Notes under the pieces: model-generated
Told to the model about the DNA's origin: nothing
What the model saw: only the letters and a program-made list of their open reading frames with translations
The model's database searches: none
Made by a program: the position numbers and the translations under genes
Part shown: positions 6,125 through 52,496 of the stretch, piece by piece
Layout: the number at the start of each line of letters is the position of its first letter
How positions within the stretch are numbered: the stretch's first letter is position 1
IMG/VR virus record: IMGVR_UViG_3300021387_001614
Location: 1-64,000 of that record
From: a virus
Taxonomy: Duplodnaviria > Caudoviricetes
Length of the DNA: 64,000 nt
Strand: one strand, 5' to 3'

Positions 6125-7771
6125 TTAAGTCCCTGAAGTCCCCGATGTTGTGTTTCTAAATTCAACTATAAAACTGTTATTACCGAGTTTAATAATTTCA
6201 ATAATTGATGTCTTAAAATTCATCGCCCTTGATGCTTTACCCACTAAAAATGTCTCAACATTACCATTATAATGTCCATAAATTGTTATGCCATCATAAT
6301 TAGTATCTATGGCTCTAATTTGTTGTGGGTTGGTAAAATATAAAGTAATTTTCTGTCCATCAACCATTGTGTTTGTTGATGATATGTAAACCACACCGTC
6401 ACCCGTGGCGGCACTATTGTCAATAAAAATCATTTTTGTACCATCACTAACACCTAAACCACTTGTAATACCGCTTAATGAAGAAGCACCCGTTGTTGAT
6501 GATATGGTTTTTGTTTCATAATGCTTGTCATTACCCCTCACCTTTTCAATTATATCGAACATTGTTATGTATTCTGCAACTCCCGGTGTTGTTTGATATT
6601 GTGTAGCACCTGTTGCAGCATAACTTTGGTCACCCATATCTGCTGATGCATCAGCATAACGGAAATACGTTTTTCTACTATTTAACAGTGTTTGTCCCTG
6701 TCTTGTCACTTCAAAAGCATTTATGGGTTGTGAAACAGTGCCGTATCCAATCGAGAAGAGTGTTGTTGTGCCAGTAAAAGCTGAAACTGTTGTCGTGGCT
6801 GTAGTTGTTCCTTGCAAATCAGCCCAATCAGCAGCGGCTGTCCCGCTATGTGATTTATTATAGAAACCAGAAGCGTGCTCCGCTTTTTGTGTAGCCACAG
6901 TGCCAGAACCTTCCGCGTGAGAAGCTTCTGCATTTGCTTTTGTTGAATAACCTTCTGCGTGAGAAAATTTTCCAGTGGCATATGTCATATTTCCTTCCGC
7001 GTGAGCACAGTCTCCGCTTACCACAGTACTCTGTCCTTCCGCGTGAGCATTATTTCCATAAGCCCTTGCATTCCACCCTTCTGCGTGCGAATAATTTCCG
7101 CCAGCCATAGATATATAACCTTCCGCGTGAGCAGCTGCTCCGCTTGCGATTGTTCCATTGCCTTCAGCGTGAGCCGCTTCTGCCGATGCACTTGTTCCGC
7201 TACCCTCTGCGTGCGCTTCAAATGTGGTTGCACTTGTTGCTCTACCTTCTGCGTGAGAATATGCGCCAGTGGCTTCGGTTTCATATCCTTCTGCGTGAGC
7301 CGCATTGCTATTTGCGTGAGTATCAAGTCCTTCAGCGTGCGTTGCAATGCCTTGGGCATAGGTGTTTTGTCCTTCAGCGTGAGAGTAATGTCCCCCACCT
7401 GTCGTGCTATCTCCTTCTGCGTGAGCACAGTTTCCGCTTGCAGTTGTTCCACTTCCTTCCGCGTGAGAGTAGGCACCACTTGCTGTTGTTCCGTCACCCA
7501 TTGCAAATGATTTGTCGCCACCTGCGGTACAACTTGTACCTTTTTGCTGAATGGAATTTGCACCTGAGCCTTTTTCAAATAACGCAAGGTTATCCGAACT
7601 GAATTTAATAACGTCGCCATTTTCGTTTCTCGTTACAAGAAACTCTTGGCCTTGGTATAAATTAACAGCAAGTTCCCCTGCTTTTATACCGTTATCGTTT
7701 TCTGCTGAATACGCACTTGGTACTGCACCTGATGTGGTGTTGTACGGTAATTTTGTATGTTGATTTGCCAT
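6125..7771 (-). CDS. tail fibre / adhesin with YadA-head-like HAEG repeats
   Basis: N-terminal GELAVN fibre motif and 14 tandem 14-aa x-H-A-E-G repeats (beta-roll type). Confidence 0.8.
   Translation of the reverse strand: MANQHTKLPYNTTSGAVPSAYSAENDNGIKAGELAVNLYQGQEFLVTRNENGDVIKFSSDNLALFEKGSGANSIQQKGTSCTAGGDKSFAMGDGTTASGAYSHAEGSGTTASGNCAHAEGDSTTGGGHYSHAEGQNTYAQGIATHAEGLDTHANSNAAHAEGYETEATGAYSHAEGRATSATTFEAHAEGSGTSASAEAAHAEGNGTIASGAAAHAEGYISMAGGNYSHAEGWNARAYGNNAHAEGQSTVVSGDCAHAEGNMTYATGKFSHAEGYSTKANAEASHAEGSGTVATQKAEHASGFYNKSHSGTAAADWADLQGTTTATTTVSAFTGTTTLFSIGYGTVSQPINAFEVTRQGQTLLNSRKTYFRYADASADMGDQSYAATGATQYQTTPGVAEYITMFDIIEKVRGNDKHYETKTISSTTGASSLSGITSGLGVSDGTKMIFIDNSAATGDGVVYISSTNTMVDGQKITLYFTNPQQIRAIDTNYDGITIYGHYNGNVETFLVGKASRAMNFKTSIIEIIKLGNNSFIVEFRNTTSGTSGT
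6870..7510 (-). repeat. 42-bp coding tandem repeat (HAEG units)
   Basis: Recurrent CCTTC(C/T/A)GCGTGAG at 42-bp spacing. Confidence 0.85.
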
Positions 7772-10247: not shown

Positions 10248-10829
10248 TTACTTTTTGCGATTCATAGAAATTGACTTGTTTTTCCCACCTTTTCTATCCA
10301 TTGCGTCTTTCATAAAGTCGTTATACCCTTTTCTTCTTTGCACTGAGCCAAATGGAACTGTATATTGTCCCGCATCAGGGTTTGCGCCACCACCTTGCAT
10401 TGCCCCTGCCGCATTTGTTGCGCCTCCGCCACCACATGCACCATCACATTCTCTGATAACACTTTCATCACATGTTCCACCCCAATCATTTTTAACGAGG
10501 AAATAGTACCCTGCACCATAATCATGATACAATTCCGCACCTATAGACGGAATATCCATTACAAACTCTCTGTGATGTGGCATGGGATTTTTGAGAAAAT
10601 TATATTCATCCCCTACAGCGCTTTTAAACCACATTGCTGCCCCTTCTTCTTCACTTACGCCATATTCTTCAGCGATTTCTTCCGCCTCGTTATCATCTAT
10701 GATGCCGTTATACATCAACTTTTCACAGTCATCCGGTTCACCATGTGACTCTTTTATAATTCTTTTCACTGAATTTTTAATGATTTTATGTAAATCATTT
10801 TCAGTAAGTCTAATTATTCTTTTTCTCAT
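10248..10829 (-). CDS. putative internal head protein with LTExDLH leader
   Basis: N-terminal RIIRLTENDLHKIIKNSVKRIIKES and Gly-rich C-terminus. Confidence 0.6.
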   Translation of the reverse strand: MRKRIIRLTENDLHKIIKNSVKRIIKESHGEPDDCEKLMYNGIIDDNEAEEIAEEYGVSEEEGAAMWFKSAVGDEYNFLKNPMPHHREFVMDIPSIGAELYHDYGAGYYFLVKNDWGGTCDESVIRECDGACGGGGATNAAGAMQGGGANPDAGQYTVPFGSVQRRKGYNDFMKDAMDRKGGKNKSISMNRKK

Positions 10830-17454: not shown

Positions 17455-18105
17455 TTAACGATATGGGCTATAAGAAAACGGGTCTTTACCGTTCTTAATA
17501 AGCCTTTCTATTTTCATCGAAAGGTTGCTTAAATTAATAAGCCCTACCCTTGCGTCACCCACAATTCTTGTTATACCAATGTCTTTTCCACCATTACCTC
17601 CGTTAATTGCGGTGATGCTACTACCCGGGTCTGTCATTCCTGACCTCTTAATTACATCAGCCATGGCTTCAACAATTGTGTAGATTTCCATTAAATGAAT
17701 GTTAAATTCATCAAGTTTTTGGAAACCGCCATAATTTGCTTTTGCAAGATTAATTGTTTCATAATAGTGCTTATTAAGTTTCGCTAAAAGTCCGTCAAAT
17801 TCGGGCATTTTTGACTTTAAAACACTATATATCAAGTTTTTACCACCAACATGGTTACGCTTTGGGTCAAAAAACTTAACAAGTTTATGAATTGGTGCAA
17901 ATGGACATTTCTTGGCATTTATATCACCAACAATTGCCCTAATTATCGTTTTTACGTCACCCGGTTTAATATAATCCAATTCATCGAGTATAGACAAGTC
18001 CATATATGTAGTCGGCTTTTTAGCAACTTCCATTAACACACCCCTAACAGCACTTTCTACAATTCGATGAAGATTCTCTTCTGTTAATTTAACTCTCTTT
18101 ACCAT
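17455..18105 (-). CDS. putative internal head protein with LTExxLH leader
   Basis: N-terminal MVKRVKLTEENLHRIVESAVRGVLME. Confidence 0.6.
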   Translation of the reverse strand: MVKRVKLTEENLHRIVESAVRGVLMEVAKKPTTYMDLSILDELDYIKPGDVKTIIRAIVGDINAKKCPFAPIHKLVKFFDPKRNHVGGKNLIYSVLKSKMPEFDGLLAKLNKHYYETINLAKANYGGFQKLDEFNIHLMEIYTIVEAMADVIKRSGMTDPGSSITAINGGNGGKDIGITRIVGDARVGLINLSNLSMKIERLIKNGKDPFSYSPYR

Positions 18106-18333: not shown

Positions 18334-18408
18334 ATTTTCGGCACTTTTTAAATAAATAGTTTGTTTTTCTTATTTTTTTTGTGTATATTTGCCAAAAACT
18401 TTAATGAG

Positions 18409-39998: not shown

Positions 39999-42020
39999 TT
40001 ACATCAATTTAACCTTGAGTTCGATATCAGAATCATTTAATACCTCAAACATTGAGTCATAGTCACTGTAGAGTACTTTATCTATTGCTTCTAAATCTAT
40101 TGGGAAAGCCTTGCAACCCTCAGGTGTTCTATACTCCAAAGATACATTATTGTTACAATTGTCAGTAACAACTAATTCGGGGAATGGACACTTATCTGAA
40201 CTATATTGCCCATCATATATATTATACACCCTTAATGATATTAAACTTATAACACCATCAACTAACGTTATTTCTTTTTCTAAGTCACCAACAAATATAT
40301 CATCACCCATGTTATGATTATTAATGTCCATATAATCTTTAATTTTTTCAATAACATTGGTTAATACTGTTGATACGTTATAGTTTTTATCGACAAAGAG
40401 GTCAATAAGGAAGCCGATGTTGTATATCTTGCCGCTTTTTATTTCAATATAATCATTAATTGTTTTATAATGTGACATCCATTCAATCACGTTTTCAACA
40501 AGCCTATCGGGTAGATACTTTGTCAATCTTCCGTTAGATTTAACACCTAAGAAACTCATGACTATTTTATTGTTTTCCTCTATAACACCCGACCTAAACG
40601 GTGCGCCATACTTAGGCGGCATTTGCATTAATTTAACTTGATAATCCTTAACGGTAACACATCTGTCTTGTGAAGATGTGTTATATTTTGTTAAATATTT
40701 TATTTCTTCTGTTGATGGTGCGTTTTTACCTGCAACCGATGCACTTGAGTTACGAACAGTGAATGAGTTTACCACAACACCTTTCTTTCTCGAATCCAAC
40801 CCAACATCATTTTTAAATTCCACGTTAATAAGCGAAAAACCGTTTATGGAATTTGGTGCAAGATTTGTCTCTATGCCGCCACCCACACGATAAAGGATGT
40901 ACATTGTCCACCCCTCACGAGGCAAAACACCAAGCATGTCGTTGTTTATTATTTTAGATGCTCTATATTCTGCATATTTGGTGGAACCGCTTGGTACTTC
41001 GTCGTATGAAACCCCCGCACCAAAAATCAACTTCATATACCCATTATCGGTATATTCAGTAATGAACTTTTGAGTCACGGGCTTCCATTGTCCGCGATAT
41101 ATTCTTGTAGTTCTCTGTGACTCGTAATTTACGTTTCTTTCGTCCGGTGTAATGGCGGGCGTTTCTGTATAATCATCGTATATTTCAGGATTATACTTAT
41201 CCATTATTACGGTATTATCAATATTTGTTGCAGTACCAAACCTATATTGGTCGGCTAAGCTCTCAACCTCGAAAAATCTGAACGTTGAAACGTCCTCAGT
41301 AGACAATTTATATTCTTCCTCGTCAAAATAATATTCTTGCATTGCCGGAGTTTCGTTGTATGACCCTGTTTCCTTACAAATGACCGATTCTACATTCATT
41401 ACATTAGTATCAGGTAAGACAATCTCCATAAACGGCGATAAATCTCTATCCATTATCACCTTTTTATATATTCGTGTCGTGCCATTAACAACAATTACGC
41501 TTTTTGTAACTGTATAACTCGTTATAGAGCCGTTACTGTTTCTATTTGGTGCGTATGTTCTGTTTGAAAAACCATCAGAATTAAATTGCTGCCCAAAATC
41601 CACATCTTCATCTAACTGAAAACTGTAATTACCCGCAGTTACCACAGATGAACGTTTAAGGATTGGTGCATAACGCCAATCGGGTTGTGATATGTTTTCG
41701 GGGTCAATGTCTATTGTGCAACTTATTCTAACCTCACACATACTTGCCTTTGCGCCGGGAACTTTCAGTCCATTTGTCCTCGCAAGGTTTAGAACTGAAC
41801 TTTTTAACTTCGCACTATTGACGTTTGTTTCTTGGTACATCCTATCAATATGATAACTAAGGTTATCAGCAACAGATGAAACCAAATCAACAAACCACGA
41901 CCCAACACTTGTGTCGCTGAAATCATCTGTCATTTCAGGATAGTACTTGTTACTAAAATTAATAAGTTCCGAACGATAATCTTCGAATGTCCTCGCAAGA
42001 TAGTTTATCTTTTTTTGCAT
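39999..42020 (-). CDS. baseplate wedge subunit (T4 gp6 / baseplate J-like)
   Basis: YLARTFEDYRSEL, DNLSYHID, YRVGGG, QDRCVTVKDY. Confidence 0.85.
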   Translation of the reverse strand: MQKKINYLARTFEDYRSELINFSNKYYPEMTDDFSDTSVGSWFVDLVSSVADNLSYHIDRMYQETNVNSAKLKSSVLNLARTNGLKVPGAKASMCEVRISCTIDIDPENISQPDWRYAPILKRSSVVTAGNYSFQLDEDVDFGQQFNSDGFSNRTYAPNRNSNGSITSYTVTKSVIVVNGTTRIYKKVIMDRDLSPFMEIVLPDTNVMNVESVICKETGSYNETPAMQEYYFDEEEYKLSTEDVSTFRFFEVESLADQYRFGTATNIDNTVIMDKYNPEIYDDYTETPAITPDERNVNYESQRTTRIYRGQWKPVTQKFITEYTDNGYMKLIFGAGVSYDEVPSGSTKYAEYRASKIINNDMLGVLPREGWTMYILYRVGGGIETNLAPNSINGFSLINVEFKNDVGLDSRKKGVVVNSFTVRNSSASVAGKNAPSTEEIKYLTKYNTSSQDRCVTVKDYQVKLMQMPPKYGAPFRSGVIEENNKIVMSFLGVKSNGRLTKYLPDRLVENVIEWMSHYKTINDYIEIKSGKIYNIGFLIDLFVDKNYNVSTVLTNVIEKIKDYMDINNHNMGDDIFVGDLEKEITLVDGVISLISLRVYNIYDGQYSSDKCPFPELVVTDNCNNNVSLEYRTPEGCKAFPIDLEAIDKVLYSDYDSMFEVLNDSDIELKVKLM

Positions 42021-42072
42021 TGTCTTCTTTTTTTAAAAAATAAAAATAATTTTTGATTTGACGAGTTTTTTG

Positions 42073-42462
42073 TTAAATTTCTGTTACAATACTGTCATTA
42101 GTTATAACGTTACCCTCCTTAACGGAATAATCTATCCTCACAAAAATTGCATTTGGATTTTCTTCACTTCTTGCCACTTGTATGTCATTTAATGACACGT
42201 TGTTAACATATCTCGAAACTGCTTCCGAAATCTCTGTTTTAACACTTTTCCAAGTGTTGCTTTCATTGGGTTCGAAAATATATTTAATCAAATCCGTGCC
42301 AAATTCGGGCATTCTAACTCTTTGCCCCTTTGGTGTAAATATAACGTGCATTATCTGACTCCTAACCTTGTTTTTCTTACTTGAATTAAGGTCTACAAAG
42401 TAATTTTCTATGTCAGTGGACGTAAATGGGTATTTTATACCAAAATATTGTTTTTTAATCAT
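42073..42462 (-). CDS. baseplate protein gp25/GPW-like
   Basis: GIKYPF, IFTPKGQRVRMPEFGTDLIKYIFEP. Confidence 0.9.
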   Translation of the reverse strand: MIKKQYFGIKYPFTSTDIENYFVDLNSSKKNKVRSQIMHVIFTPKGQRVRMPEFGTDLIKYIFEPNESNTWKSVKTEISEAVSRYVNNVSLNDIQVARSEENPNAIFVRIDYSVKEGNVITNDSIVTEI

Positions 42463-42538
42463 AAAAATAATATAATATTTTCCCCTATAAATATCACAGA
42501 ATAGGAAATACGCTATTTATTATCAAAAAAGCATTCAC

Positions 42539-44371
42539 ATGGATTTTAAAATTCTACCAACTGATGTCGTTTTATGCGCAATTGCTAAAAACGAAAACAA
42601 TTATATAGAAGAGTGGGTTCAGTGGTATTTTAACTTAGGTTTCGATAAAATTTACATTTTTGATGACAACGAGGACGAAAGAGCGTTGCCGTCACTTCCC
42701 CTTATTAATGAATATGTAGAAGCCGGTAAAATACATATAGAATATTGTGGTAAAGAAAAAATTAACTACAAGCAAATGGTAAAGTATAAAAGTTTTTATA
42801 CTCAAAACAAGTTTGCGTGGTGTGCGTTTTTTGATATTGATGAGTTTTTAGTATTAAAACAACACAAAAACATTAAAGAATATCTTTCGATGGACATTTT
42901 TTCGAATTTCTCAGCGATATCAATATGTTGGGAAATGTACGGTGATAACGGACATTTAAAAAAAGAAAAAGGCGGCGTTGTCGAAAGATTTCCTGAGCCA
43001 TTCACAGGTGACACTAACGGTATCAGCGATGTTTATAACGGTGACAAGATGTTAGTGAAGAAAATTATTCGTGGTGGAATTAAAAACATCGAATTTCCCA
43101 ATCCTCACGCCGTTAGGTGTGTAAATGTTATAAGATGTTGTGATGAAAAAGGGTCATCCGTAAGTTCAGCCAAATTTGCAATCGAAAAAACATATAAATA
43201 CGCTAAAATAAACCACTATTTTACAAAATCTGCTGAAGAATATGCAAATAAAGTAAAAAGAGGACGTGCTGCGCAAAAATCTAACGTGTTTAGAAAAATG
43301 GATGAGTATTTTTCCATAAACCCTAAAACACAAGACAGAATTGATGCGTTAAGGGAAGCCTTTGGATACGAAAAAAAGGATGAAACTGTTAAATATTTTG
43401 GAAACCAACCCATATCAAGCAAAAAAAAGATACTTTTCCTTGTAATGTCATGCAATAAACCCGATTTTATTAAAGAAGAAGATATTGTTAGAGAAACATG
43501 GGCAAAGGAAATTGTTAATAATGAATTCGAAAACATAGATTTATATTTTTATAGAGCCACAAAGGAAAAAGAAATACACGTTGATAAGGATGTTATTTTT
43601 ATCCCGTCAAGGGACGATTGGAACGGTACATATGATAAAACGCTGAAATGTTTTAAATACATATTAGCAAATAAAGATTTCGACTATGTGGTTAGAACAA
43701 ATACGAGCAACTATATAAATGTAAAATGTCTCGTTGACATGATTAACAACATACCCGAAAATGACACAAATATATACGGAACGAGACTTATAATTAACAA
43801 CACATCAAGGGGTTACACGTATTTTAGGGGAAATTGCCTCGTTTTAAAGAAAAGTATCGTTAAGGATATTGTGGATGCTGAAATATCATCAATCCGTGAG
43901 GCTGATGACGGTGCAATGGCATATACGCTTGTTGTTAAATATACAAAAAACGGTATTGATTATCATGAAAAATTAAGACAGTTCCCCATTTCTTATGTTT
44001 ATACAAGTCCGGAAAAATTCAAATATGATTTTGATACAATGAAAGATTCCGTTTGTTTTAGGCTTAAGACAAGTCCACAAGCAAACAGAAACTCTAAACT
44101 TATTATTAGCAAGATGAAAAAAATGGATGCGATAATAAGAGCCGAAGAAAGAAAATTCGTCGCACCAACCAAATTTAATACGGATTATGTGGAAAGTTTA
44201 TATGGAAGATTATCCTTTGATGATGCCATGAAACGTTCAAAAAAGAAATTAGTACAAAGAATGCCAACAGCCGCAAAGAAGATTAAATCAAACGGGAACG
44301 TAACTTACGGAAAAACTAATTTCATACCAAAAAGGCTCATTAATCATCATATAGGGAGGCTATTAGTTTAA
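42539..44371 (+). CDS. two-domain glycosyltransferase (GT2/GT92-like plus GT31/galactosyltransferase-like)
   Basis: CAIAKNENNYIEEWV, FFDIDEF, INHYFTKS in the first domain; VMSC...RETW...DKT...FDYVVRTNTSNYIN...ADD in the second. Confidence 0.8.
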   Translation: MDFKILPTDVVLCAIAKNENNYIEEWVQWYFNLGFDKIYIFDDNEDERALPSLPLINEYVEAGKIHIEYCGKEKINYKQMVKYKSFYTQNKFAWCAFFDIDEFLVLKQHKNIKEYLSMDIFSNFSAISICWEMYGDNGHLKKEKGGVVERFPEPFTGDTNGISDVYNGDKMLVKKIIRGGIKNIEFPNPHAVRCVNVIRCCDEKGSSVSSAKFAIEKTYKYAKINHYFTKSAEEYANKVKRGRAAQKSNVFRKMDEYFSINPKTQDRIDALREAFGYEKKDETVKYFGNQPISSKKKILFLVMSCNKPDFIKEEDIVRETWAKEIVNNEFENIDLYFYRATKEKEIHVDKDVIFIPSRDDWNGTYDKTLKCFKYILANKDFDYVVRTNTSNYINVKCLVDMINNIPENDTNIYGTRLIINNTSRGYTYFRGNCLVLKKSIVKDIVDAEISSIREADDGAMAYTLVVKYTKNGIDYHEKLRQFPISYVYTSPEKFKYDFDTMKDSVCFRLKTSPQANRNSKLIISKMKKMDAIIRAEERKFVAPTKFNTDYVESLYGRLSFDDAMKRSKKKLVQRMPTAAKKIKSNGNVTYGKTNFIPKRLINHHIGRLLV

Positions 44372-44404
44372 TAATTAGATATTTATATAGAAAAACACGA
44401 AAAA

Positions 44405-45757
44405 ATGAAAAAATACTTGACCTTATTTAATTCCCACGCTGAATACGAACAATACGTGAGCGGTAATTTTGAGAAGCCAAACGTATCACATTGCGTTCAG
44501 GAAGATGATGTACATTATAATCCTCTACATGACTATTCAAAGGATTATCTTACTTTTGTTGCCCTTGAAGACGGTACAATATCGTTTAACATATTGGACT
44601 CAATGGGAACTGATATGATTACCTCAATCAGTTATTCAACTGATAACGGTGAAACATGGACAACAACAGCAAATCAAAACAATAAACAAGAAAACCTTTC
44701 AATTGATGTTGATGTGAATGAAGGCGATAAAGTAATGTGGAAAGGCATCGCAACACAAACGGGATACTACTTTAACGATGACGATTTTGGTTATTATGTT
44801 GGCTCGTTTTTTAGTTCTGATTGCGAGTTTGATGCAAAGGGCAATGTGATGTCATTGCTTTATGGTGATGATTTCAAGGGTGAAACAACAATAGAGGAAG
44901 ATGCTACATTTTGCCGACTATTCTCTGATACTGATGAAGGAAAAACGTGTGGTGTTGTAAACGCCAAAGAATTATCATTACCTGCTACAACGTTGGCAAA
45001 TAATTGTTATGAAAATATGTTCTATTACTGTACAAGTCTAACATCAGCGCCTGAATTACCCGCCACTACATTGGCAAGTAGTTGTTATTTTGGTATGTTC
45101 TATGGTTGTACAGGTCTCACAACAGCACCTGAGTTACCTGCAACAACATTGGTATTTGGTTGTTATCGGAGTATGTTCGAAGGTTGCACAAGTCTTACAA
45201 CGGCACCTGTATTACCTGCAACGACATTGGCAGATTATTGTTATGCTTATATGTTCAATGGTTGTACAAGCCTTGTGACAGCACCCGAATTATCTGCTAC
45301 TACATTGGCATACCATTGTTATCAAGGTATGTTCGCAAATTGTTCAAGACTTACAACAGCACCTGAGTTACCTGCTACAACATTGGTAGGTTATTGTTAT
45401 AGTAATATGTTTAGAGGCTGTGTGGGTCTTATAACAGCACCTCAGTTACCTGCTACAACATTGGCAAGTTGGTGTTATGAAAGTATGTTCCAAGGTTGTA
45501 AAAGTCTAACAACAGCACCTCAGTTACCTGCCACTACACTGACAACTTATTGCTATCAGAATATGTTCAATGGTTGCACAAAACTTAATTACATCAAGGC
45601 AATGTTTACTACAACACCAAGTACAAGTTATACAAGTGGTTGGGTAAGTGGAGTTGCTGCAACAGGTACATTTGTAAAGAACAGTGCTGCAACATGGAAT
45701 GTTACAGGTGTTAATGGTGTTCCAAGTAGATGGACTGTTCAAACAGCAAGTGCATAA
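44405..45757 (+). CDS. leucine-rich-repeat (BspA/TpLRR-related) protein A with 8 x 26-aa repeats
   Basis: Repeat LPATTLxxxCYxxMFxGCTSLTTAPE and N-terminal YLTLF...PNVS...VHYNP module. Confidence 0.85.
   Translation: MKKYLTLFNSHAEYEQYVSGNFEKPNVSHCVQEDDVHYNPLHDYSKDYLTFVALEDGTISFNILDSMGTDMITSISYSTDNGETWTTTANQNNKQENLSIDVDVNEGDKVMWKGIATQTGYYFNDDDFGYYVGSFFSSDCEFDAKGNVMSLLYGDDFKGETTIEEDATFCRLFSDTDEGKTCGVVNAKELSLPATTLANNCYENMFYYCTSLTSAPELPATTLASSCYFGMFYGCTGLTTAPELPATTLVFGCYRSMFEGCTSLTTAPVLPATTLADYCYAYMFNGCTSLVTAPELSATTLAYHCYQGMFANCSRLTTAPELPATTLVGYCYSNMFRGCVGLITAPQLPATTLASWCYESMFQGCKSLTTAPQLPATTLTTYCYQNMFNGCTKLNYIKAMFTTTPSTSYTSGWVSGVAATGTFVKNSAATWNVTGVNGVPSRWTVQTASA
44978..45601 (+). repeat. 78-bp coding tandem repeat, 8 units
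   Basis: Recurrent TTACCTGC(T/A/C)AC(A/T/G)ACATTG...TGTTAT...ATGTTC at 78-bp period. Confidence 0.9.
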
Positions 45758-45780
45758 AAACATCTATATATCAAACACAC

Positions 45781-45842
45781 AAGTGGCATTTTAAGGGTAT
45801 TTATGTTAAAATATTAACGGAACCAACAGGTGTATAGTTCCC
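45781..45842 (+). mobile_element. orphan IS1595 right end (remnant)
   Basis: 52/62 ungapped identity to 51003-51064, ending in ...CAACAGGTGTATAGTTCCC. Confidence 0.85.
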
Positions 45843-45849
45843 ATTATAA

Positions 45850-45883
45850 AAAATGAGCAGCCAAATTAATGGTTGCTCATTTT
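45850..45883. terminator. bidirectional terminator
   Basis: AAAATGAGCAGCCA...TGGTTGCTCATTTT between convergent genes. Confidence 0.8.
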
Positions 45884-45885
45884 CT

Positions 45886-47085
45886 TTATTCATCAAGCGT
45901 TTCCTCTTCTCCGAATATAATATCCTCTGCCGACATTTCACCCTTATCATCGTCAGGTGAGTCCTTAATTTCTTCGAGTTTCGATAAAATATCCTTTATG
46001 TATGTCTTTTTATATTCCTCAAGTGACTCTTCGGGAATAATGCCGTTATGCACACAACACATTGTGCCTGAATACGTTATATTAAATGGTGTTGGTAGTT
46101 GATTCTTTGTCACCGCAATCTTTGTTATAATACCGTAATTATACGTATCGCCCTTTGCCGTTGCAGTGAGTTTCTTTGTTGCCGCCTTTGCAACACCACC
46201 CAAGTGAATAATCAGTCTTGCGCCATAGAAGAATGTCTTTCCACCCTTTAACTCGATTGATGGTATTCCCGGCATACCGTTCATACTGTCATTCCAAATC
46301 TTATTAACACAGAACATTGTGTTCGTGTATTTCTCACTAACTTTTCTCGATGTCGGTATTCTGTTGTTAATCAGACTGTTAAATGCCTGTGAAATTGCAC
46401 CTGCATCGAACATGTTGTTGTTCGATTTGCTTGAATATGACTTAAAGGATGTTATCGAACCAATACTATCCCATATGAAACATATTGGCTGCTTAATTTT
46501 TCCTTCATCCTGCATATCAAGGATTTCATTAATGGAAAGCGCAATATCCTCCAATACTGCAACATTTCTGCGTTTTGACACGCGCTTACCTGCTGAATGG
46601 TCAAAATCACCATATTTTTTCGTAAGCGTTTTCGTATCGAAATAAACAAAGTTGCCACGATACTTAATAATGTCAGTTGTTATTTCGCCCGTTTCTTCAT
46701 CAAGAATTTCGCCATAAACGGGAGTTGCATCAACGCCACAATCAATTGCATATTTCCAATCGAAATTGCCCTCAGTTTCATATATAACAGGTAAAATACC
46801 CTTCTTTTGACACGCTGCAATGAGACAGTTTTTAATTGTTGATTTTCCCGTATTAGACCATCCCGTTACCAAAGTCAGATATCCCATGGGGATTCCCGGC
46901 AATTTTAATGCATCTTCAAAAGCCTTTGGCAGTGGTATAAACTCTGTTGGTTTTTCCGCGTTTGACGTTTCCAAGTCGCTTCGCTTAATCGGCTTACTTG
47001 ATTCCTCTATTTCAAGTCCAAGTAACTTATTTATGTCATCAGCTGAAGGTATTACAAATGTTTTCTTTTTAATCGCTTGTTTCAT
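45886..47085 (-). CDS. RecA/UvsX-like recombinase
   Basis: GIPMGYLTLVTGWSNTGKST (Walker A), YETEG, IWDSIGS (Walker B), KGGKTFFY. Start taken at MKQAIK. Confidence 0.88.
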   Translation of the reverse strand: MKQAIKKKTFVIPSADDINKLLGLEIEESSKPIKRSDLETSNAEKPTEFIPLPKAFEDALKLPGIPMGYLTLVTGWSNTGKSTIKNCLIAACQKKGILPVIYETEGNFDWKYAIDCGVDATPVYGEILDEETGEITTDIIKYRGNFVYFDTKTLTKKYGDFDHSAGKRVSKRRNVAVLEDIALSINEILDMQDEGKIKQPICFIWDSIGSITSFKSYSSKSNNNMFDAGAISQAFNSLINNRIPTSRKVSEKYTNTMFCVNKIWNDSMNGMPGIPSIELKGGKTFFYGARLIIHLGGVAKAATKKLTATAKGDTYNYGIITKIAVTKNQLPTPFNITYSGTMCCVHNGIIPEESLEEYKKTYIKDILSKLEEIKDSPDDDKGEMSAEDIIFGEEETLDE

Positions 47086-47698
47086 ACTTTTTAACTCGTT
47101 GTTTTTCTCTAATTTTTTGTTTCCAGCATTTTCTACACATCGGTTGATAAATATCATCACCACCGACAAGAACTTGCTCACCCTCCGTTATTATATTTTC
47201 ATCCTTATCAAACCTTGCATTTATGGATGCCTTTTTGTTACATTTACAACTTGATTTTAATTCTTGAAACTCATCAGCTATTTCAAAAAGCCTTTTTGAT
47301 GCCGGAAAAAGTTTTGACCTAAAATCTGTGCGTAATCCATAACATAGAACGTTAACACCCATTAAATCAACAACGTCCGATAATTGGTCTACCTGTTCCT
47401 CAGTTAAAAACTGACATTCATCAACCAATACCCACATTAACGGTTTGGCTTGTTGTGCCATAAGAACGTTATTATATTGATGTATTGCCTCATATATATC
47501 AACGTTACTATTAACACTAACACACGCCCTTTTTAATCCTGCTCTTGATTTAATCATGTTCTTTCCATCTCGTGTATCAATGGATGGCTTAAGAACCATG
47601 AAAGGTATACCTTTTTCTTCAAAATTATACGCCGTTGCAAGGAGGTTTAGGGTTTTTGACGAACCCATTACACCATAAAAAAATCTTAGCTTAGCCAT
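47069..47698 (-). CDS. tdk: thymidine kinase
   Basis: YGVMGSSKT, KPSIDTR, LVDECQFL, YGLRTDF, CKC...CRKC. Confidence 0.95.
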   Translation of the reverse strand: MAKLRFFYGVMGSSKTLNLLATAYNFEEKGIPFMVLKPSIDTRDGKNMIKSRAGLKRACVSVNSNVDIYEAIHQYNNVLMAQQAKPLMWVLVDECQFLTEEQVDQLSDVVDLMGVNVLCYGLRTDFRSKLFPASKRLFEIADEFQELKSSCKCNKKASINARFDKDENIITEGEQVLVGGDDIYQPMCRKCWKQKIREKQRVKKYETSD

Positions 47699-48811: not shown

Positions 48812-49023
48812 TGTGTTGGCTTTAAGTACCATTGGCATTTACTGCCAACTGCTATATTATTATCGGGAACTATATACCTGTTGTCCCCGAACATAGCGAC
48901 TAGCAAACTTTAACTTTTGTCTAGCTATCCTTAACTTAAAAAATTCCCGTTTTACTGGAAAAATGCGTACCTTTGTATTACCTTTAAGACAAAGGAATAA
49001 CATTCAGTAAAACGGGAATAATT

Positions 49024-50019
49024 ATGATAGATTTCACAAATTTCAAGTCACTCAAATCGGTAATCAGACACTTCAACAATGAAGACATCTGCAAGCAAAC
49101 GCTTGTGGAGGCACGTTGGGGTGGCGATGTTGTTTGTCCTCATTGCGGACAGCACCATTGCACCATGCGCAAGGACGGACGTTATCGCTGCAACCATTGC
49201 AAGCATAACTTCTCTTGTACCACAGGTACAATATTTCAGAACACCAAGTTGCCACTTCAAACTTGGTTCATTGCCATGTATCAGGTGTCTTCACACAAGA
49301 AGGGCATTTCCTCATTGCAGATAATGCGTGACTGCGAGGTCACTCAGAAGACCGCTTGGTTCATTCTGCACAAGATTCGTGGTCTCTACGGCATTACCGA
49401 TGAGATTGCCCTTGACGGAGAGGTGGAGATGGACGAGATGTACCTTGGTGGACGTGAAATAAACAAGCACGAAAGCAAGAAGACTGAGGGTACACAGGGT
49501 CGCTCTACCAAGACCAAAACACCAATCTTCGGTATGATTCAGCGTGGTGGCAACGTTGTTGCAATGAAGGTGGACGATACAAAGGGTGCTACCTTGATGC
49601 CCATCGTGAGCCAATTCGTTGAGAGTGGTGCTACCACTTATACGGATGAAGCCAACATCTACCACAAGTTGTCAGAGAACGGCTATGAGCACCTTTTCGT
49701 TAATCACTCACAGCGTGAATACGTCCGTGCCAATGACATTCATACCAACGGAATTGAGGGGTTTTGGGCACATTTCAAGCGTGTCATTTTCTCTACCTAT
49801 CACAGCGTTTCCAAGGACTATGTACAGCGTTATATTGACGAGCAGTCATATCGTTGGAATACCCGTAAATGGAATGCTTCTGAGCGTTTTGAGGATATGT
49901 TCAAGAAGGCTGCAAAGTCCTTTGAGTATGCTGACGTTCTGAGCCTTTCAAGCGTTATTGACGTTGTTGCTTGGAAGACCAAGCACGATAGTTACTATTG
50001 GGCAGGAAAGGTTGCATAA
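49024..50019 (+). CDS. IS1595-family (ISXO2-like) DDE transposase
   Basis: Zinc ribbon CPHC...CNHC, TGTIFQNTKLPL, KKGISS HTH, EMDEMYLGG, YTDE, NHS, HTNGIEGFW, YIDEQSYRWN. GC visibly higher than the flanks. Confidence 0.95.
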   Translation: MIDFTNFKSLKSVIRHFNNEDICKQTLVEARWGGDVVCPHCGQHHCTMRKDGRYRCNHCKHNFSCTTGTIFQNTKLPLQTWFIAMYQVSSHKKGISSLQIMRDCEVTQKTAWFILHKIRGLYGITDEIALDGEVEMDEMYLGGREINKHESKKTEGTQGRSTKTKTPIFGMIQRGGNVVAMKVDDTKGATLMPIVSQFVESGATTYTDEANIYHKLSENGYEHLFVNHSQREYVRANDIHTNGIEGFWAHFKRVIFSTYHSVSKDYVQRYIDEQSYRWNTRKWNASERFEDMFKKAAKSFEYADVLSLSSVIDVVAWKTKHDSYYWAGKVA

Positions 50020-50022
50020 ATG

Positions 50023-50055
50023 AAATTGAGCAACCACTATTGGATTACTCAATTT
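50023..50055. terminator. hairpin between the convergent transposase and passenger genes
   Basis: AAATTGAG(caacca ctat tggatta)CTCAATTT. Confidence 0.6.
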
Positions 50056-50072
50056 GTATGTCATTATAGAAC

Positions 50073-50888
50073 TTAAAGTATTCCTTGTGAAGTCCAATTT
50101 CGATATCCAAGATTTCCATCATTTCCCATCCAAGACGAGTAATCACTACCACTTGGATAATATAATACTCCACCTTCTTTGACATATGCCCAAAAGCCTG
50201 ATTGTATTGTTGGTGCAATAGTTGGATATGCGTAGATGGTTTCAAGACTCGTACATCCTTGGAACGCATTAATAATCATTGTTGATACACTACTTGGTAT
50301 TGTTATGCTTTGTAAACTACTACAATTGTAGAAAGCACCACCATCAATACTTGTGACACTATTGCCCATTATTACATTTGTAAGACTTGTACAATGACCA
50401 AAAGCACTACCACCAATGCTTGTAACACTATTCGGTATTGTTATATTCAATAAGTTTGTACAACTATTAAACGTACCAGCCATAATTGCGGTAACATTAG
50501 TTGGAATATTTACATTTGTAAGACTTGTACAATATTCGAATACATTATAATTAAGGCTTGTAACACTATTTGATATTGTTGCCTCTGTAAGAGCGGAACA
50601 ATGGGAAAATGCACCGTTTCCAATACTTGTACATAATTCCCCAACCTCAACACTAACAAGCGTGTTTTTATATATATCACTTACCATTGCTTTTGTCAGT
50701 TCTCCGCTTCCTTCAAGTTCAACTACGCTGTCATCACTGAGTGTCAGTTTGCAGAAGAAAGGTGGCTTATTATAATGTACCGTATTATCTCCCTCTACAT
50801 ATGATACATAAGGTTCTATATATGTTTCACCATCTTCATAAGTCAGTCTTTCAGCATCGGTGCTGAATAGTTTTAAGTAATCTCCCAT
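50073..50888 (-). CDS. BspA/TpLRR leucine-rich-repeat protein B (IS passenger)
   Basis: About six 23-aa VTSIGxxAFxxCTSLTxIxIPNS repeats and N-terminal YLKLF...PYVS...VHYNKP module. Confidence 0.9.
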   Translation of the reverse strand: MGDYLKLFSTDAERLTYEDGETYIEPYVSYVEGDNTVHYNKPPFFCKLTLSDDSVVELEGSGELTKAMVSDIYKNTLVSVEVGELCTSIGNGAFSHCSALTEATISNSVTSLNYNVFEYCTSLTNVNIPTNVTAIMAGTFNSCTNLLNITIPNSVTSIGGSAFGHCTSLTNVIMGNSVTSIDGGAFYNCSSLQSITIPSSVSTMIINAFQGCTSLETIYAYPTIAPTIQSGFWAYVKEGGVLYYPSGSDYSSWMGNDGNLGYRNWTSQGIL

Positions 50889-51071
50889 ATTTATATATGA
50901 TATTAGTTATGTTATTATTCTACAATATAAATATCCCGACAAGAAGAGAAATTCCTGTTGGGATATTGTTTATTTTGATATTTTGTATTATATTTGTACC
51001 CGAAATGGTAATTTAAAGATATTTATGTTAAAACATTAACGGGGACAACAGGTATATAGTTCCCTTATTAT

Positions 51072-51632
51072 CTATTTTTTACGAAATCTTTTCGGGCGGT
51101 CTTTTAGGTTACGATTCCCATAATATGAATTCATCAAACCCTTTGTTCTTCTTTTGGCACTCCTTGAGAATCTTTTATAAAAATCTGATAATTCATCATT
51201 GGATAAATCATCGAAATTTTCATAATCATTGAAATGATACGAATCATACGCAAAAATACTATCCGGATTTTCTTTATAATGTCCAAAATCTATACTAATA
51301 TCATCATCACCTATTGGTTTTCTCCATTCTTCAAAGTCATCTCCGTGTATATAATTAGAAAGTGTCCCGACATAATTGTCTTTATCTTTCCACGAATATG
51401 ATTGGAATACTCCATAATCTTTGTCATCAGGCATACAATATTCAAGAGTTTCATCTTGGTCTTCAACCGCCCCATCTTCGAGTGACCTAAGAAAATTATA
51501 AAGGTCTTTGATTTTGTATTTATTCCACTCTCTATCTATCTCTTCCTTTGAAGCCTCTCTCAATATTTTTTTTACCGACCTCTTTACAATCTTATGCAAG
51601 TCAGACTCTGTTAATCTTACTCTTTTTTTCAT
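51072..51632 (-). CDS. putative internal head protein with LTESDLH leader
   Basis: MKKRVRLTESDLHKIVKRSVKKILREAS, acidic core, basic tail. Confidence 0.65.
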   Translation of the reverse strand: MKKRVRLTESDLHKIVKRSVKKILREASKEEIDREWNKYKIKDLYNFLRSLEDGAVEDQDETLEYCMPDDKDYGVFQSYSWKDKDNYVGTLSNYIHGDDFEEWRKPIGDDDISIDFGHYKENPDSIFAYDSYHFNDYENFDDLSNDELSDFYKRFSRSAKRRTKGLMNSYYGNRNLKDRPKRFRKK

Positions 51633-51662
51633 ATTGTTTTTATATGCATTCATCAAATTATT

Positions 51663-52496
51663 TTAATAACCAAATATCTTATTTATATCCTGCTTCAGGT
51701 CATCATCAACATAAAAACTTTGTGCCATATCTCTTTCTGTCATGTCATCAACGTCATTATTGGTGATTACATATTCTTTTGATGTTGGCTCTTGGTTGTC
51801 AAAATATGCGTCATAATTGCTTGTCATACCTTTTTGTTTCCAATAATCAACAGGATTAACGTTAAATGGATATGAATCGAGTGAACGCAAATTCAATTTT
51901 TCGGTTTGTGTCGGGTTTCTTTTTTGGAATTCCTGATTTAACGCCTCGATGTTATTATTATTGCTGTCAATCATGGTTTCCATTTTTTCGATTGCTGTTA
52001 AGAGTTGGTCGATTCGATGATTAACCTTAACCACATCACGCCCTACCGCATTAACTTTATCATTAACCTTTTCCTCTGCGTTGGTAATATCTTCGACATC
52101 AATAACTTCTTCTTCATCACCACCCATAGCGTCGTCCATTGGCATACCGTCATCCATTGGCATATCGCCACCCATGGAATCATCCATAGGGGGTTCATCC
52201 ATTGGCATACCGTCTGTATTTGGGTCGCCCATTGGTGCACCGCCCGCATTAGGGTCGCCCATTGGTGCACCGCCCGCATTGGTGTCATCCATTGGCATAC
52301 CGTCTGCATTTGGGTCGCCCATTGGTGCACCGCCTGCATCCTGAGGCTGTTCGCCGCCCATAGGGTCGTTATTATTCATGTCTTGGTCATCATCAGCCTC
52401 TTCAACAGTACCATAGCCAAAACCTTCTACAATTCTCTTAAAGTGCTTATGTGCCTCATAAAGATTGTTTTCCTTAAGATATTTTACGTTTGTCAT
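51663..52496 (-). CDS. putative prohead scaffold/core protein with acidic G/P/M/D repeats
   Basis: GGAPMGDPNA/DGMPMDD repeats, EEEVIDV, coiled coil, LRSLDSYPFN. Confidence 0.6.
   Translation of the reverse strand: MTNVKYLKENNLYEAHKHFKRIVEGFGYGTVEEADDDQDMNNNDPMGGEQPQDAGGAPMGDPNADGMPMDDTNAGGAPMGDPNAGGAPMGDPNTDGMPMDEPPMDDSMGGDMPMDDGMPMDDAMGGDEEEVIDVEDITNAEEKVNDKVNAVGRDVVKVNHRIDQLLTAIEKMETMIDSNNNNIEALNQEFQKRNPTQTEKLNLRSLDSYPFNVNPVDYWKQKGMTSNYDAYFDNQEPTSKEYVITNNDVDDMTERDMAQSFYVDDDLKQDINKIFGY
52141..52340 (-). repeat. 30-bp coding tandem repeats
   Basis: ATTGGTGCACCGCCCGCATT / ATTGGCATACCGTC units at 30-bp period. Confidence 0.8.

What the first reader, a model, noticed from the sequence alone, without database searches (positions are those of the whole stretch)
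44380..45850. Second LRR gene abuts an orphan copy of the same IS right end: candidate transposon-driven LRR cassette system
Seen: 23 bp after the stop of LRR gene A is a 62-bp sequence (45781-45842) that is 52/62 identical, without gaps, to the element's right end and finishes exactly at the IR terminus ...TAGTTCCC. I found no left IR, no transposase, and no upstream copy of the following ATTATAAA near the gene. So both LRR genes in the window sit against an end of this IS family, although gene A points toward the end and gene B points away from it. Inference: an older delivery event whose left part was lost or replaced, for example by recombination through the shared 5' module. Repeated IS delivery followed by domestication would give the phage a swappable repertoire of LRR binders. 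I do not know of such a system being described.
Basis: partly seen in the sequence, partly recalled or inferred. Interest (0 to 1): 0.85.

Follow-up and report, generated by a model that had tools for sequence, protein, structure and literature searches.

The report
Transposon scar beside phage LRR gene
A 62-base leftover of a jumping gene sits just after a variable binding-protein gene in a giant rumen phage; the leftover is probably only a scar, but its transposon family does ferry phage-type binder genes between giant phages and their Prevotella-type hosts.

Summary
Observation confirmed. Window 45781-45842 matches the right end of the intact IS1595-family element at 48865-51064 in 52 of 62 bases. 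It ends at the inverted-repeat terminus and has no transposase, left end or target duplication.

It is a real, old, decaying relic. A 97%-identical strain carries it unchanged. A second strain keeps only about 20 nt of the repeat at the same place.

The wider idea is largely supported. In IMG/VR jumbo-phage contigs and in rumen Prevotellaceae chromosomes this IS lineage carries cargo genes. Transposase-less 'end-gene-end' derivatives have perfect 8-bp duplications. Cargo is enriched for two N-terminal modules, one being gene A's YLxxF..PNVS..VHYNP module. That module was missing from 300 other genomes sampled from the family of one of those MAGs; in each of three MAG genomes searched whole, its only copy was the IS cargo.

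For gene A itself a scar beside a resident gene is more likely (about 0.6) than delivery (about 0.3):
- the polarity is wrong for this end type;
- the site is typical for insertion, an AT-rich 8-mer beside a terminator;
- eleven more distant A-family loci lack such ends;
- LRR-array variation between strains can occur without any change in the relic.

The scan had already noted cargo-carrying IS1595 elements in rumen jumbo phages on other DNA (e1-5482586, e1-5641737).

The parts
42539..44371 (+). Glycosyltransferase (610 aa), immediately upstream of gene A. A GT next to an A-family LRR gene recurs in two unrelated phage contexts.
   Evidence: Pfam Glyco_tranf_2_4 and Glyco_transf_92. 99% identical in strains L204 and L206. 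GT beside an A-like gene also in L207 and L065.
44405..45757 (+). LRR gene A (450 aa). N-terminal M1 module (about residues 1-41), beta-sandwich (about 48-147), eight 26-residue BspA-like repeats, and a C-terminal cap.
   Evidence: Pfam LRR_5 at 36 bits (cut-off 27.7). AF2 model with pLDDT 94; best PDB match 4fs7, a Bacteroides BspA-type LRR protein. More than 8000 homologues.
44977..45581 (+). 78-nt tandem array (7.8 copies) encoding the LRR units. This is the hypervariable part between near-identical strains.
   Evidence: TRF. Identity to strains L204 and L206 drops to 55-87% here against 97-100% in the flanks. Orthologues are 450, 476 and 425 aa.
45758..45780 (+). 23-nt spacer between gene A's stop and the relic. 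It holds the breakpoint where homology to the IS interior ends.
45781..45842 (-). Orphan right end of an IS1595-family element: terminal inverted repeat 45818-45842 plus 37 subterminal bases, terminus at 45842, former interior toward lower coordinates.
   Evidence: 52/62 to 51003-51064. 50-53/62 to other right ends of the same IS species (L211, L212, L215), and at most 38/62 to other ends. Identical in strain L204; reduced to a roughly 20-nt repeat-like relic in L206.
45843..45850 (.). ATTATAAA, the presumed surviving copy of the 8-bp target duplication. No second copy lies nearby.
   Evidence: The lineage makes AT-rich 8-bp duplications.
45850..45883 (+). 14-bp-stem terminator hairpin lying between the convergent gene A and recA, so placed to end both. 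The relic lies between gene A's stop and this hairpin.
   Evidence: Rfam shows only sub-threshold terminator-like hits.
45886..47181 (-). RecA/UvsX-like recombinase, a conserved flank (p281-gp32-TK-RecA block) in 46 related phage loci.
48813..48864 (-). 52-nt remnant of a second type of IS1595 end (IS-2 type). The intact IS inserted into its terminal 8 nt.
   Evidence: The whole block 48813-51655 is absent from strain L206.
48865..51064 (+). Intact sibling element (IS-1): transposase 49024-50019 (+), cargo LRR gene B 50073-50888 (-), 25-bp perfect repeats, duplications 48857-48864 and 51065-51072.
51072..51653 (-). p194, a gene with the second cargo-type N-terminal module (M2, ..RLTESDLHKIVK..). 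It abuts the IS block and is absent from strain L206.

Best explanation
The 62 bp is an inactive solo right end, a scar, of an IS1595-family transporter IS. It belongs to the same species group as the intact element 3 kb away.

Inferred history: an element landed in the AT-rich spacer between LRR gene A's stop codon and the terminator hairpin that separates it from recA. An internal deletion then removed the left end, the transposase, any cargo and one copy of the target duplication, leaving the last 62 nt. The relic cannot move and is eroding.

Gene A is most likely a resident phage gene. It belongs to a large BspA-like LRR family that often sits next to a glycosyltransferase. Its repeat array diversifies between strains by recombination among the 78-nt units, without help from the relic.

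The relic is still one visible trace of a real process. In rumen jumbo phages and their Prevotellaceae hosts, this IS lineage and its transposase-less 'end-gene-end' derivatives carry phage-type genes marked by the M1 or M2 N-terminal modules and insert them beside terminators.
For: Shown:
- Right-end-specific homology, far beyond chance.
- The nearest relatives are right ends of the same IS species (50-53/62).
- In IS-1, L212 and L215 homology runs on past 62 nt through a conserved hairpin. The 62-nt limit therefore looks like a deletion breakpoint.
- No partner end, transposase or duplication.
- The relic is identical in strain L204 and cut to a 16/19 repeat match in strain L206 at the same position.
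- The same spacer in L206 holds a different IS1595-type end plus an 85-aa ORF, so the spacer is a repeated landing site.
- Reconstructed empty sites of 13 TSD-flanked elements are A/T-rich 8-mers; about half (at least six) lie directly beside terminator-like hairpins. The relic abuts hairpin 45850-45883.
- All six copies of this right-end type with an adjacent cargo gene have its 5' end toward the end.
- Eleven more distant A-family loci lack such ends.
- A GT next to an A-family gene recurs without IS ends in L207 and L065.
- Between the window and L204 the LRR array differs while the relic is 100% identical.

Inferred: the order of events (insertion, then internal deletion).
Against: - Gene A lies on the former interior side of the end, 85 nt from the terminus. 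Genuine cargo genes in related elements end 50-226 nt from a terminus.
- In one copy (L211) the conserved right-end module is only about 50 nt long. The 62-nt limit could therefore be a natural module/cargo boundary rather than a breakpoint.
- An A-family gene with an IS end about 200 nt past its stop exists in L011.
- The glycosyltransferase and gene A are absent from the RecA-gp25 interval of more distant relatives, so the pair was acquired somehow.
- In L206 the divergent block runs from the LRR array through the relic to recA. The relic has therefore travelled with the gene's 3' half for a long time.
Confidence: 0.6

Rival explanations
1. Delivery model. Gene A, or its 3' LRR part, arrived as cargo of an IS1595 transporter element or of a transposase-less end-gene-end derivative. 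The 62 bp is the surviving end of that vehicle, and the other end was later lost or overwritten.
For: - M1-module genes are enriched as the first ORF inside IS ends: 13/65 against 3/60 outside, p = 0.015. For M1 plus M2 it is 26/65 against 8/60, p = 0.001.
- Transposase-less elements that carry only an M1 gene have perfect 8-bp duplications (L088, L120).
- Host-chromosome copies carry M1-LRR cargo (L131, L135).
- L011 has an A-family gene next to an IS end.
- Gene A's stop lies 85 nt from the terminus, a cargo-like distance.
- The GT and gene A pair is missing from more distant relatives.
Against: - The polarity is wrong for this end type.
- In cargo-only derivatives such as L120, the end next to the gene's 3' side is a left-type (transposase-proximal) end, not a right-type end.
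- There is no left end and no duplication.
- Most A-family genes, including paralogue A2 in the same genome, have no IS end.
- The GT stop to gene A start spacing of 34 nt leaves no room for an end, unless the GT was cargo too.
Confidence: 0.3
2. The relic is kept because it does something. It might be a cis site that the genome's own IS1595 transposase binds to promote exchange of the gene's 3' half, or a part of gene A's 3' UTR that affects its expression.
For: - It has persisted across alleles that differ by about 25%.
- An intact transposase of the same IS species is encoded 3 kb away.
- It lies inside gene A's transcript, upstream of the terminator.
Against: - Strain L206 has lost the 37-43 subterminal bases.
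- No structured-RNA family matches.
- As far as I know, IS1595-type DDE transposition needs two inverted ends.
- Array variation occurs without any change in the relic.
Confidence: 0.07
3. Chance similarity in AT-rich intergenic DNA.
For: None beyond the AT-richness of the region.
Against: E = 1e-12 within the genome. 0 of 100 shuffles reach the observed count of terminal-repeat matches. The match ends exactly at the terminus.
Confidence: 0.01

Closest known systems
Transporter insertion sequences (tIS) of the IS1595 family (Siguier, Gagnevin & Chandler 2009, Res Microbiol, cited in PMC7986276, which also defines tIS)
   Same: Zn-ribbon plus DDE_Tnp_IS1595 transposase, terminal inverted repeats, 8-bp AT-rich target duplications, and passenger genes between the transposase and one end.
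   Different: - These elements live in virulent-type jumbo phage genomes as well as in host chromosomes.
- Their cargo is phage-type, marked by the M1 or M2 N-terminal modules.
- Many transposase-less, cargo-only derivatives exist.
- The feature under review is only a 62-nt dead end of such an element.
Solo IS ends and MITEs (internal-deletion derivatives of insertion sequences)
   Same: A terminal inverted repeat plus subterminal sequence without a transposase. True two-ended MITEs of this lineage (165-516 bp, with duplications) occur in related phages (L087, L096, L081, L089, L213).
   Different: The relic has one end only and no duplication, so it is neither a MITE nor mobilisable. A comparable solo right end of about 48 nt occurs in L214.
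Cassette systems that vary phage receptor-binding proteins (invertible tail-fibre segments such as Mu Gin or P1 Cin, diversity-generating retroelements, tail-fibre module exchange)
   Same: A constant N-terminal part joined to a variable C-terminal binder, with several paralogues per genome. This rests on general knowledge and was not tested here.
   Different: No invertase or reverse transcriptase lies at the locus. The movement shown here is DDE transposition of whole genes. Variation in gene A lies within the array and can occur without any change in the relic.
BspA-type leucine-rich-repeat surface proteins of Bacteroidales (Pfam LRR_5; PDB 4fs7, 4fd0)
   Same: Gene A matches LRR_5 above the cut-off and folds as an LRR solenoid that best matches these structures.
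   Different: It has an unusually regular 26-residue unit, an N-terminal M1 module plus beta-sandwich, and a phage context. No signal peptide was tested for, and no binding partner is known.

Membership tests
IS1595 family (the orphan as a derivative of a member) | Terminal inverted repeat of the family type at the element boundary | tested here: met
   45818-45842 matches the intact element's 25-nt repeat at 21/25. The 19-nt terminal pattern matches with 0 mismatches (one N). The match ends at the terminus.
IS1595 family (the orphan as a derivative of a member) | DDE_Tnp_IS1595 transposase with N-terminal zinc ribbon between the ends | tested here: not met
   No transposase or remnant lies within several kb on the interior side (tblastn). 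It is present in the sibling at 49024-50019. The feature is therefore a relic, not an element.
IS1595 family (the orphan as a derivative of a member) | Second, inverted end and 8-bp direct target duplication | tested here: not met
   No partner end was found. ATTATAAA occurs once in 40000-46000. The sibling has both.
Transporter IS (tIS) with gene A as passenger | The gene lies between the two ends of one TSD-flanked element | tested here: inconclusive
   Only one end survives. Distance and side fit cargo, but the polarity relative to this end type does not.
BspA-type LRR proteins (Pfam LRR_5), gene A | Profile match above the curated cut-off and an LRR solenoid fold | tested here: met
   36 bits against a 27.7 cut-off. 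AF2 pLDDT 94; best PDB hits are Bacteroides LRR_5 proteins.
M1-module proteins (uncurated: N-terminal YLxxF..PNVS..VHYNP) | Module at residues 1 to about 45 of the protein | tested here: met
   Gene A and gene B align with 21 further module sequences in alignment A2. The profile finds 2853 clusters, with the module at or within a few residues of the N-terminus in nearly all of the 150 listed hits. No Pfam or PHROG family covers it.

The most novel reading that the evidence does not exclude
Rumen jumbo phages and their Prevotellaceae hosts share a transposon-borne cassette pool. IS1595 transporter elements, and cargo-only derivatives moved in trans, pick up phage genes that carry a virion-type N-terminal adaptor (M1 on LRR, lectin or Ig binders; M2 on others). 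They park these genes in host chromosomes and drop them beside terminators in other phages. This would give virulent phages a swappable binder repertoire. In this reading, gene A's 3' half plus its relic is one such old cassette.
Probability: 0.3. Interest if true: 0.8.

Novelty: new variant of a known kind. Interest (0 to 1): 0.55.

Why it matters
The 62-bp relic by itself is an ordinary IS scar. It matters because it led to a well-documented pattern.

- One IS1595 lineage, with identical terminal repeats and transposases 76-85% identical, occurs both in rumen Prevotellaceae chromosomes and in 300-400-kb phage genomes.
- It regularly carries passenger genes, and it has spawned transposase-less gene-carrying derivatives that still transpose.
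- The passenger genes bear N-terminal modules that are otherwise characteristic of the phages. M1 was found in 0 of 300 other genomes sampled from the family of one of those MAGs; in each of three MAG genomes searched whole, its only copy was the IS cargo.

This suggests a route for gene exchange between phages that have no integrase, with the host chromosome as a depot. It also offers a possible source of new receptor-binding or adhesion modules. I found no description of this in the papers I could search. Both ideas can be tested with long-read rumen metagenomes and with transposition assays.

Tried and rejected
- **Left end upstream of gene A or the GT.** Pattern search with up to 5 mismatches, an nhmmer profile of 59 ends, and a search for a second ATTATAAA found nothing. 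A GGGAACG heptamer at 44294, 111 nt upstream of gene A inside the GT's 3' end, matches only 9/19 of the repeat. I treat it as chance.
- **End-mimic targeting** (lead from note e1-4314604). The reconstructed empty sites of 13 TSD-flanked elements score no better against the end profile than random sites: mean -12.2 against -13.4. Only the intact IS in this window sits in another IS end.
- **Population series at the gene A-recA junction.** Exact-pattern scans for the junction gave no hits in metagenome or viral contigs. No empty site and no fully occupied site was recovered.
- **Cultured relatives.** The isolated-phage collection has no close relative and no M1 module hit.
- **Family libraries.** PHROGs gave no family for gene A, the M1 module, p194, the GT or the IS-2 cargo.
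- **Rfam.** Only sub-threshold terminator-like hits.
- **Recombination through the shared 5' module.** Rejected as the origin of this arrangement on geometry: it would put the IS end at a gene's 5' side.

Full report
**Context.** The window is bases 1-64000 of a 146,936-bp IMG/VR viral record that CheckV rates 44% complete. It encodes T4-like core proteins: gp25 baseplate wedge, gp32, a RecA/UvsX-like recombinase and thymidine kinase. Its relatives are contigs of 317-412 kb. It is therefore a fragment of a jumbo phage. The closest transposase relatives lie in rumen Prevotella and Prevotellaceae MAGs, which points to that host group by inference.

**Observation.**
- Gene A (44405-45757, +) ends with TAA at 45755-45757.
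- Bases 45781-45842 match 51003-51064 at 52/62 without gaps and stop at the terminus.
- The match covers the 25-nt inverted repeat (21/25) and 37 subterminal bases (31/37). The subterminal bases are specific to the right end; the left end shares only the repeat.
- Chance is excluded.
- The sibling at 48865-51064 is a complete IS1595-family element. It has perfect 25-bp repeats, the duplication TTATTATC, a Zn-ribbon plus DDE_Tnp_IS1595 transposase, and a convergent LRR_5 cargo gene B.
- No left end, transposase remnant or second ATTATAAA lies near gene A.

**Anatomy of the locus.** The order is gp25 (-), glycosyltransferase (+), gene A (+), a 23-nt spacer, the 62-nt relic, ATTATAAA, a 14-bp-stem terminator (45850-45883), then recA (-). 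The relic therefore lies inside gene A's 3' untranslated region, directly against the terminator.

Gene A folds with high confidence (pLDDT 94) into four parts: a short N-terminal module, a beta-sandwich, an LRR solenoid and a cap. Its best structural matches are Bacteroides BspA-type LRR proteins. The LRR part is a 78-nt tandem array of 7.8 copies.

**Strain comparison.** Two near-identical relatives were recovered through gene A's homologues.
- L204 (97% nt identity) has the same synteny and a relic identical base for base. Its LRR array nevertheless differs (75-87% identity, one extra repeat, 476 aa).
- L206 (96-98% in the flanks) has a diverged allele from about 44700 through the array, cap, spacer and terminator (425 aa).
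- At the relic's position L206 keeps only a repeat-like stretch of about 20 nt (16/19 to the terminal pattern).
- Between the terminator and recA, L206 also has about 540 extra bases. These hold an end of the second IS1595 type plus an 85-aa ORF.
- L206 lacks window 48813-51655: the 52-nt IS-2-type remnant, the intact IS and p194.

The flanks (GT, first third of gene A, recA) are 97-100% identical in both strains. Three conclusions follow. The relic is older than the split of these strains and is eroding. The spacer is a repeated landing site. Array variation can occur with no change in the relic.

**The IS lineage.** Transposase homologues at 54-69% identity occur in other jumbo-phage contigs. 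Their elements are 1.65-3.1 kb long and have GGGAAC(G/T)ATATAC... repeats, 8-bp duplications and cargo.

A scan of IMG/VR for the terminal pattern gave 56 loci. They comprise:
- autonomous elements;
- transposase-less 'end-gene-end' elements with perfect duplications: L078, L079, L081, L088, L089, L094, L097, L120 and L122;
- MITEs of 165-238 bp (L087, L096);
- many single ends.

Cargo is enriched for two N-terminal modules. M1 is the YLxxF..PNVS..VHYNP module of genes A and B. M2 is (R/K)LTESDLHRIVKESV-like, as in p194. The first ORF inside an end is M1 in 13/65 cases against 3/60 outside (p = 0.015). For M1 or M2 it is 26/65 against 8/60 (p = 0.001). Loci are not all independent, so these p-values are indicative only. 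In 46 RecA-anchored control loci I found one M1 ORF, no transposase and one repeat-like end, and that end lies next to the only substantial A-like gene (L011).

**Host copies.** Transposases up to 85% identical, with terminal repeats identical to the intact element here, lie in rumen Prevotellaceae MAG contigs. Their flanks are plainly bacterial: DcuB, phosphoglucomutase, a SusC-type receptor and serine dehydratase. They too carry cargo: M1-LRR (L131, L135), M1 with a lectin-like C-terminus (L133), or M2 (L124, L129, L171).

In three of these genomes the only M1 gene in the whole genome is the IS cargo. None of 300 other sampled genomes of that family has the module.

The M1 profile finds 2853 clusters among 1.84 billion representatives. 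In nearly all of the 150 listed hits the module starts at or within a few residues of residue 1. Of 109 sampled, 63 carry LRR_5, 8 Lcl_C and 3 Big_2. M1 is thus a module seen in the phage contigs on binder domains and missing from the bacterial genomes sampled. It has no curated family. That it anchors binders to the virion is my inference and was not tested.

**Was gene A delivered, or is the relic a scar beside it?**

For delivery:
- gene A lies on the former interior side, 85 nt from the terminus, a cargo-like distance;
- M1 genes are typical cargo;
- L011 shows an A-family gene next to an IS end;
- the GT and gene A are absent from this interval in more distant relatives;
- in L211 the conserved right-end module is only about 50 nt long.

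For a scar:
- the six copies of this right-end type that have an adjacent cargo gene (the intact IS here, the cargo-bearing L211, L212 and L215, and the related L053 and L054 layouts) all have its 5' end toward the end;
- in cargo-only derivatives the end next to the gene's 3' side is of the left, transposase-proximal type (L120 against L090), not the right type seen here;
- in IS-1, L212 and L215 homology continues beyond 62 nt;
- the lineage inserts in A/T 8-mers, about half of the 13 reconstructed sites lying beside terminator hairpins, which is exactly where the relic lies;
- eleven more distant A-family loci, and paralogue A2 in this genome, have no IS end;
- a GT next to an A-family gene recurs without IS ends.

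I put the scar reading at about 0.6 and delivery at about 0.3.

**Mechanism.** Shown: the relic's identity, its age relative to the strains, its erosion, the mobility of whole cargo genes in this lineage (duplications around cargo-only elements), and the sharing of the lineage between hosts and phages. Inferred: insertion beside the terminator followed by internal deletion, transposition between host chromosome and replicating phage DNA during infection, and repeat recombination as the source of array variation.

**Comparison and novelty.** Passenger-carrying IS1595 members (tIS) are known (PMC7986276, citing Siguier et al. 2009), and so are solo ends and MITEs. I found no paper describing such elements in jumbo phages or with phage-type cargo. 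The scan had already noted the same kind of element on other DNA (notes e1-5482586 and e1-5641737). This report adds:
- the relic's history across strains;
- the transposase-less cargo-only derivatives with duplications;
- the inside-versus-outside enrichment;
- the finding that M1 was found in the sampled bacterial genomes only as IS cargo.

**Caveats.**
- MAG binning could misplace phage contigs. I checked bacterial flanks for six loci only.
- ORF calls are mechanical.
- Module detection used profiles built here.
- No empty site specific to the relic was found.

Noticed in passing
genome 75086-77589 (L003:11086-13589), beyond the window: A second, different IS1595 element (IS-2). Its transposase is 53% identical to the first and its repeats are about 26 nt of the GGYAATRATATAGCAGTTGGCACAAA type. 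It carries two cargo genes (273 aa on the minus strand, 156 aa on the plus strand) and shows no clear duplication. The same cargo pair or the 273-aa gene accompanies related transposases in Prevotella genomes, including the isolates MA2016 and tf2-5.
   Followed up: partly
window 48813-48864 and 51072-51653: A 52-nt remnant of an IS-2-type end. The intact IS inserted into its terminal 8 nt, since the TSD TTATTATC is the reverse complement of the remnant's first 8 bases. The stop codon of p194 (M2 module) overlaps that terminus from outside. The whole block 48813-51655 is missing in strain L206.
   Followed up: partly
genome 100509-100533 (L004:4510-4534) and 106474-106497: Two more solo IS ends. 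One matches the IS-1 repeat 18/18, with a 240-aa gene starting 85 nt inside it. The other is GTAACGATATAACTGTTGACAC-like, with an M2 gene's stop codon a few nt outside the terminus, the same odd geometry as at p194.
   Followed up: partly
L078, L079, L081, L088, L089, L094, L097, L120, L122 (IMG/VR loci): Transposase-less elements of 476-2790 bp. They consist of two IS1595 ends around one to three genes (often M1 or M2 genes) and are flanked by perfect 8-bp duplications. They are gene-carrying non-autonomous transposons in jumbo phages.
   Followed up: partly
window 10248-10829, 17455-18105, 51072-51653; genome 74092, 106499, 107439, 124793, 138605, 139082: Nine genes in this 147-kb record start with the M2 module (..IRLTESDLHRIVKES..-like amphipathic helix). 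The same module marks much of the IS cargo in phages and in host chromosomes. Its function is unknown.
   Followed up: partly
genome 68742-70310 and 139340-143941, beyond the window: Two further M1 genes: a paralogue of gene A with 12 LRR units (57-68% identical, no IS end) and a 1533-aa LRR_5 giant. An M2 gene lies directly downstream of the giant.
   Followed up: partly
L206:7300-7920: In the close strain L206, the spacer between gene A's terminator and recA holds an IS-2-type end (GGCAATGATATAGCAGTTGACACAAA) and an 85-aa ORF that this window lacks.
   Followed up: partly
window 6867-7492: A 42-nt tandem periodicity (10 copies at 60-73% identity) inside the 548-aa ORF 6125-7771 on the minus strand. 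This is a repeat protein that I did not examine.
   Followed up: no
window 52131-52339: 30-nt repeats inside p281, encoding a Pro/Met/Gly/Asp-rich low-complexity stretch. p281 is conserved next to gp32 in all relatives.
   Followed up: no
window 5241, 16543, 48741, 53644 (and inverted at 18360): A recurrent motif of about 35 nt, TGCAAATATACA followed by an A-rich tract, in intergenic regions. On the opposite strand it reads like the Bacteroidetes -7 promoter box TAnnTTTG.
   Followed up: no
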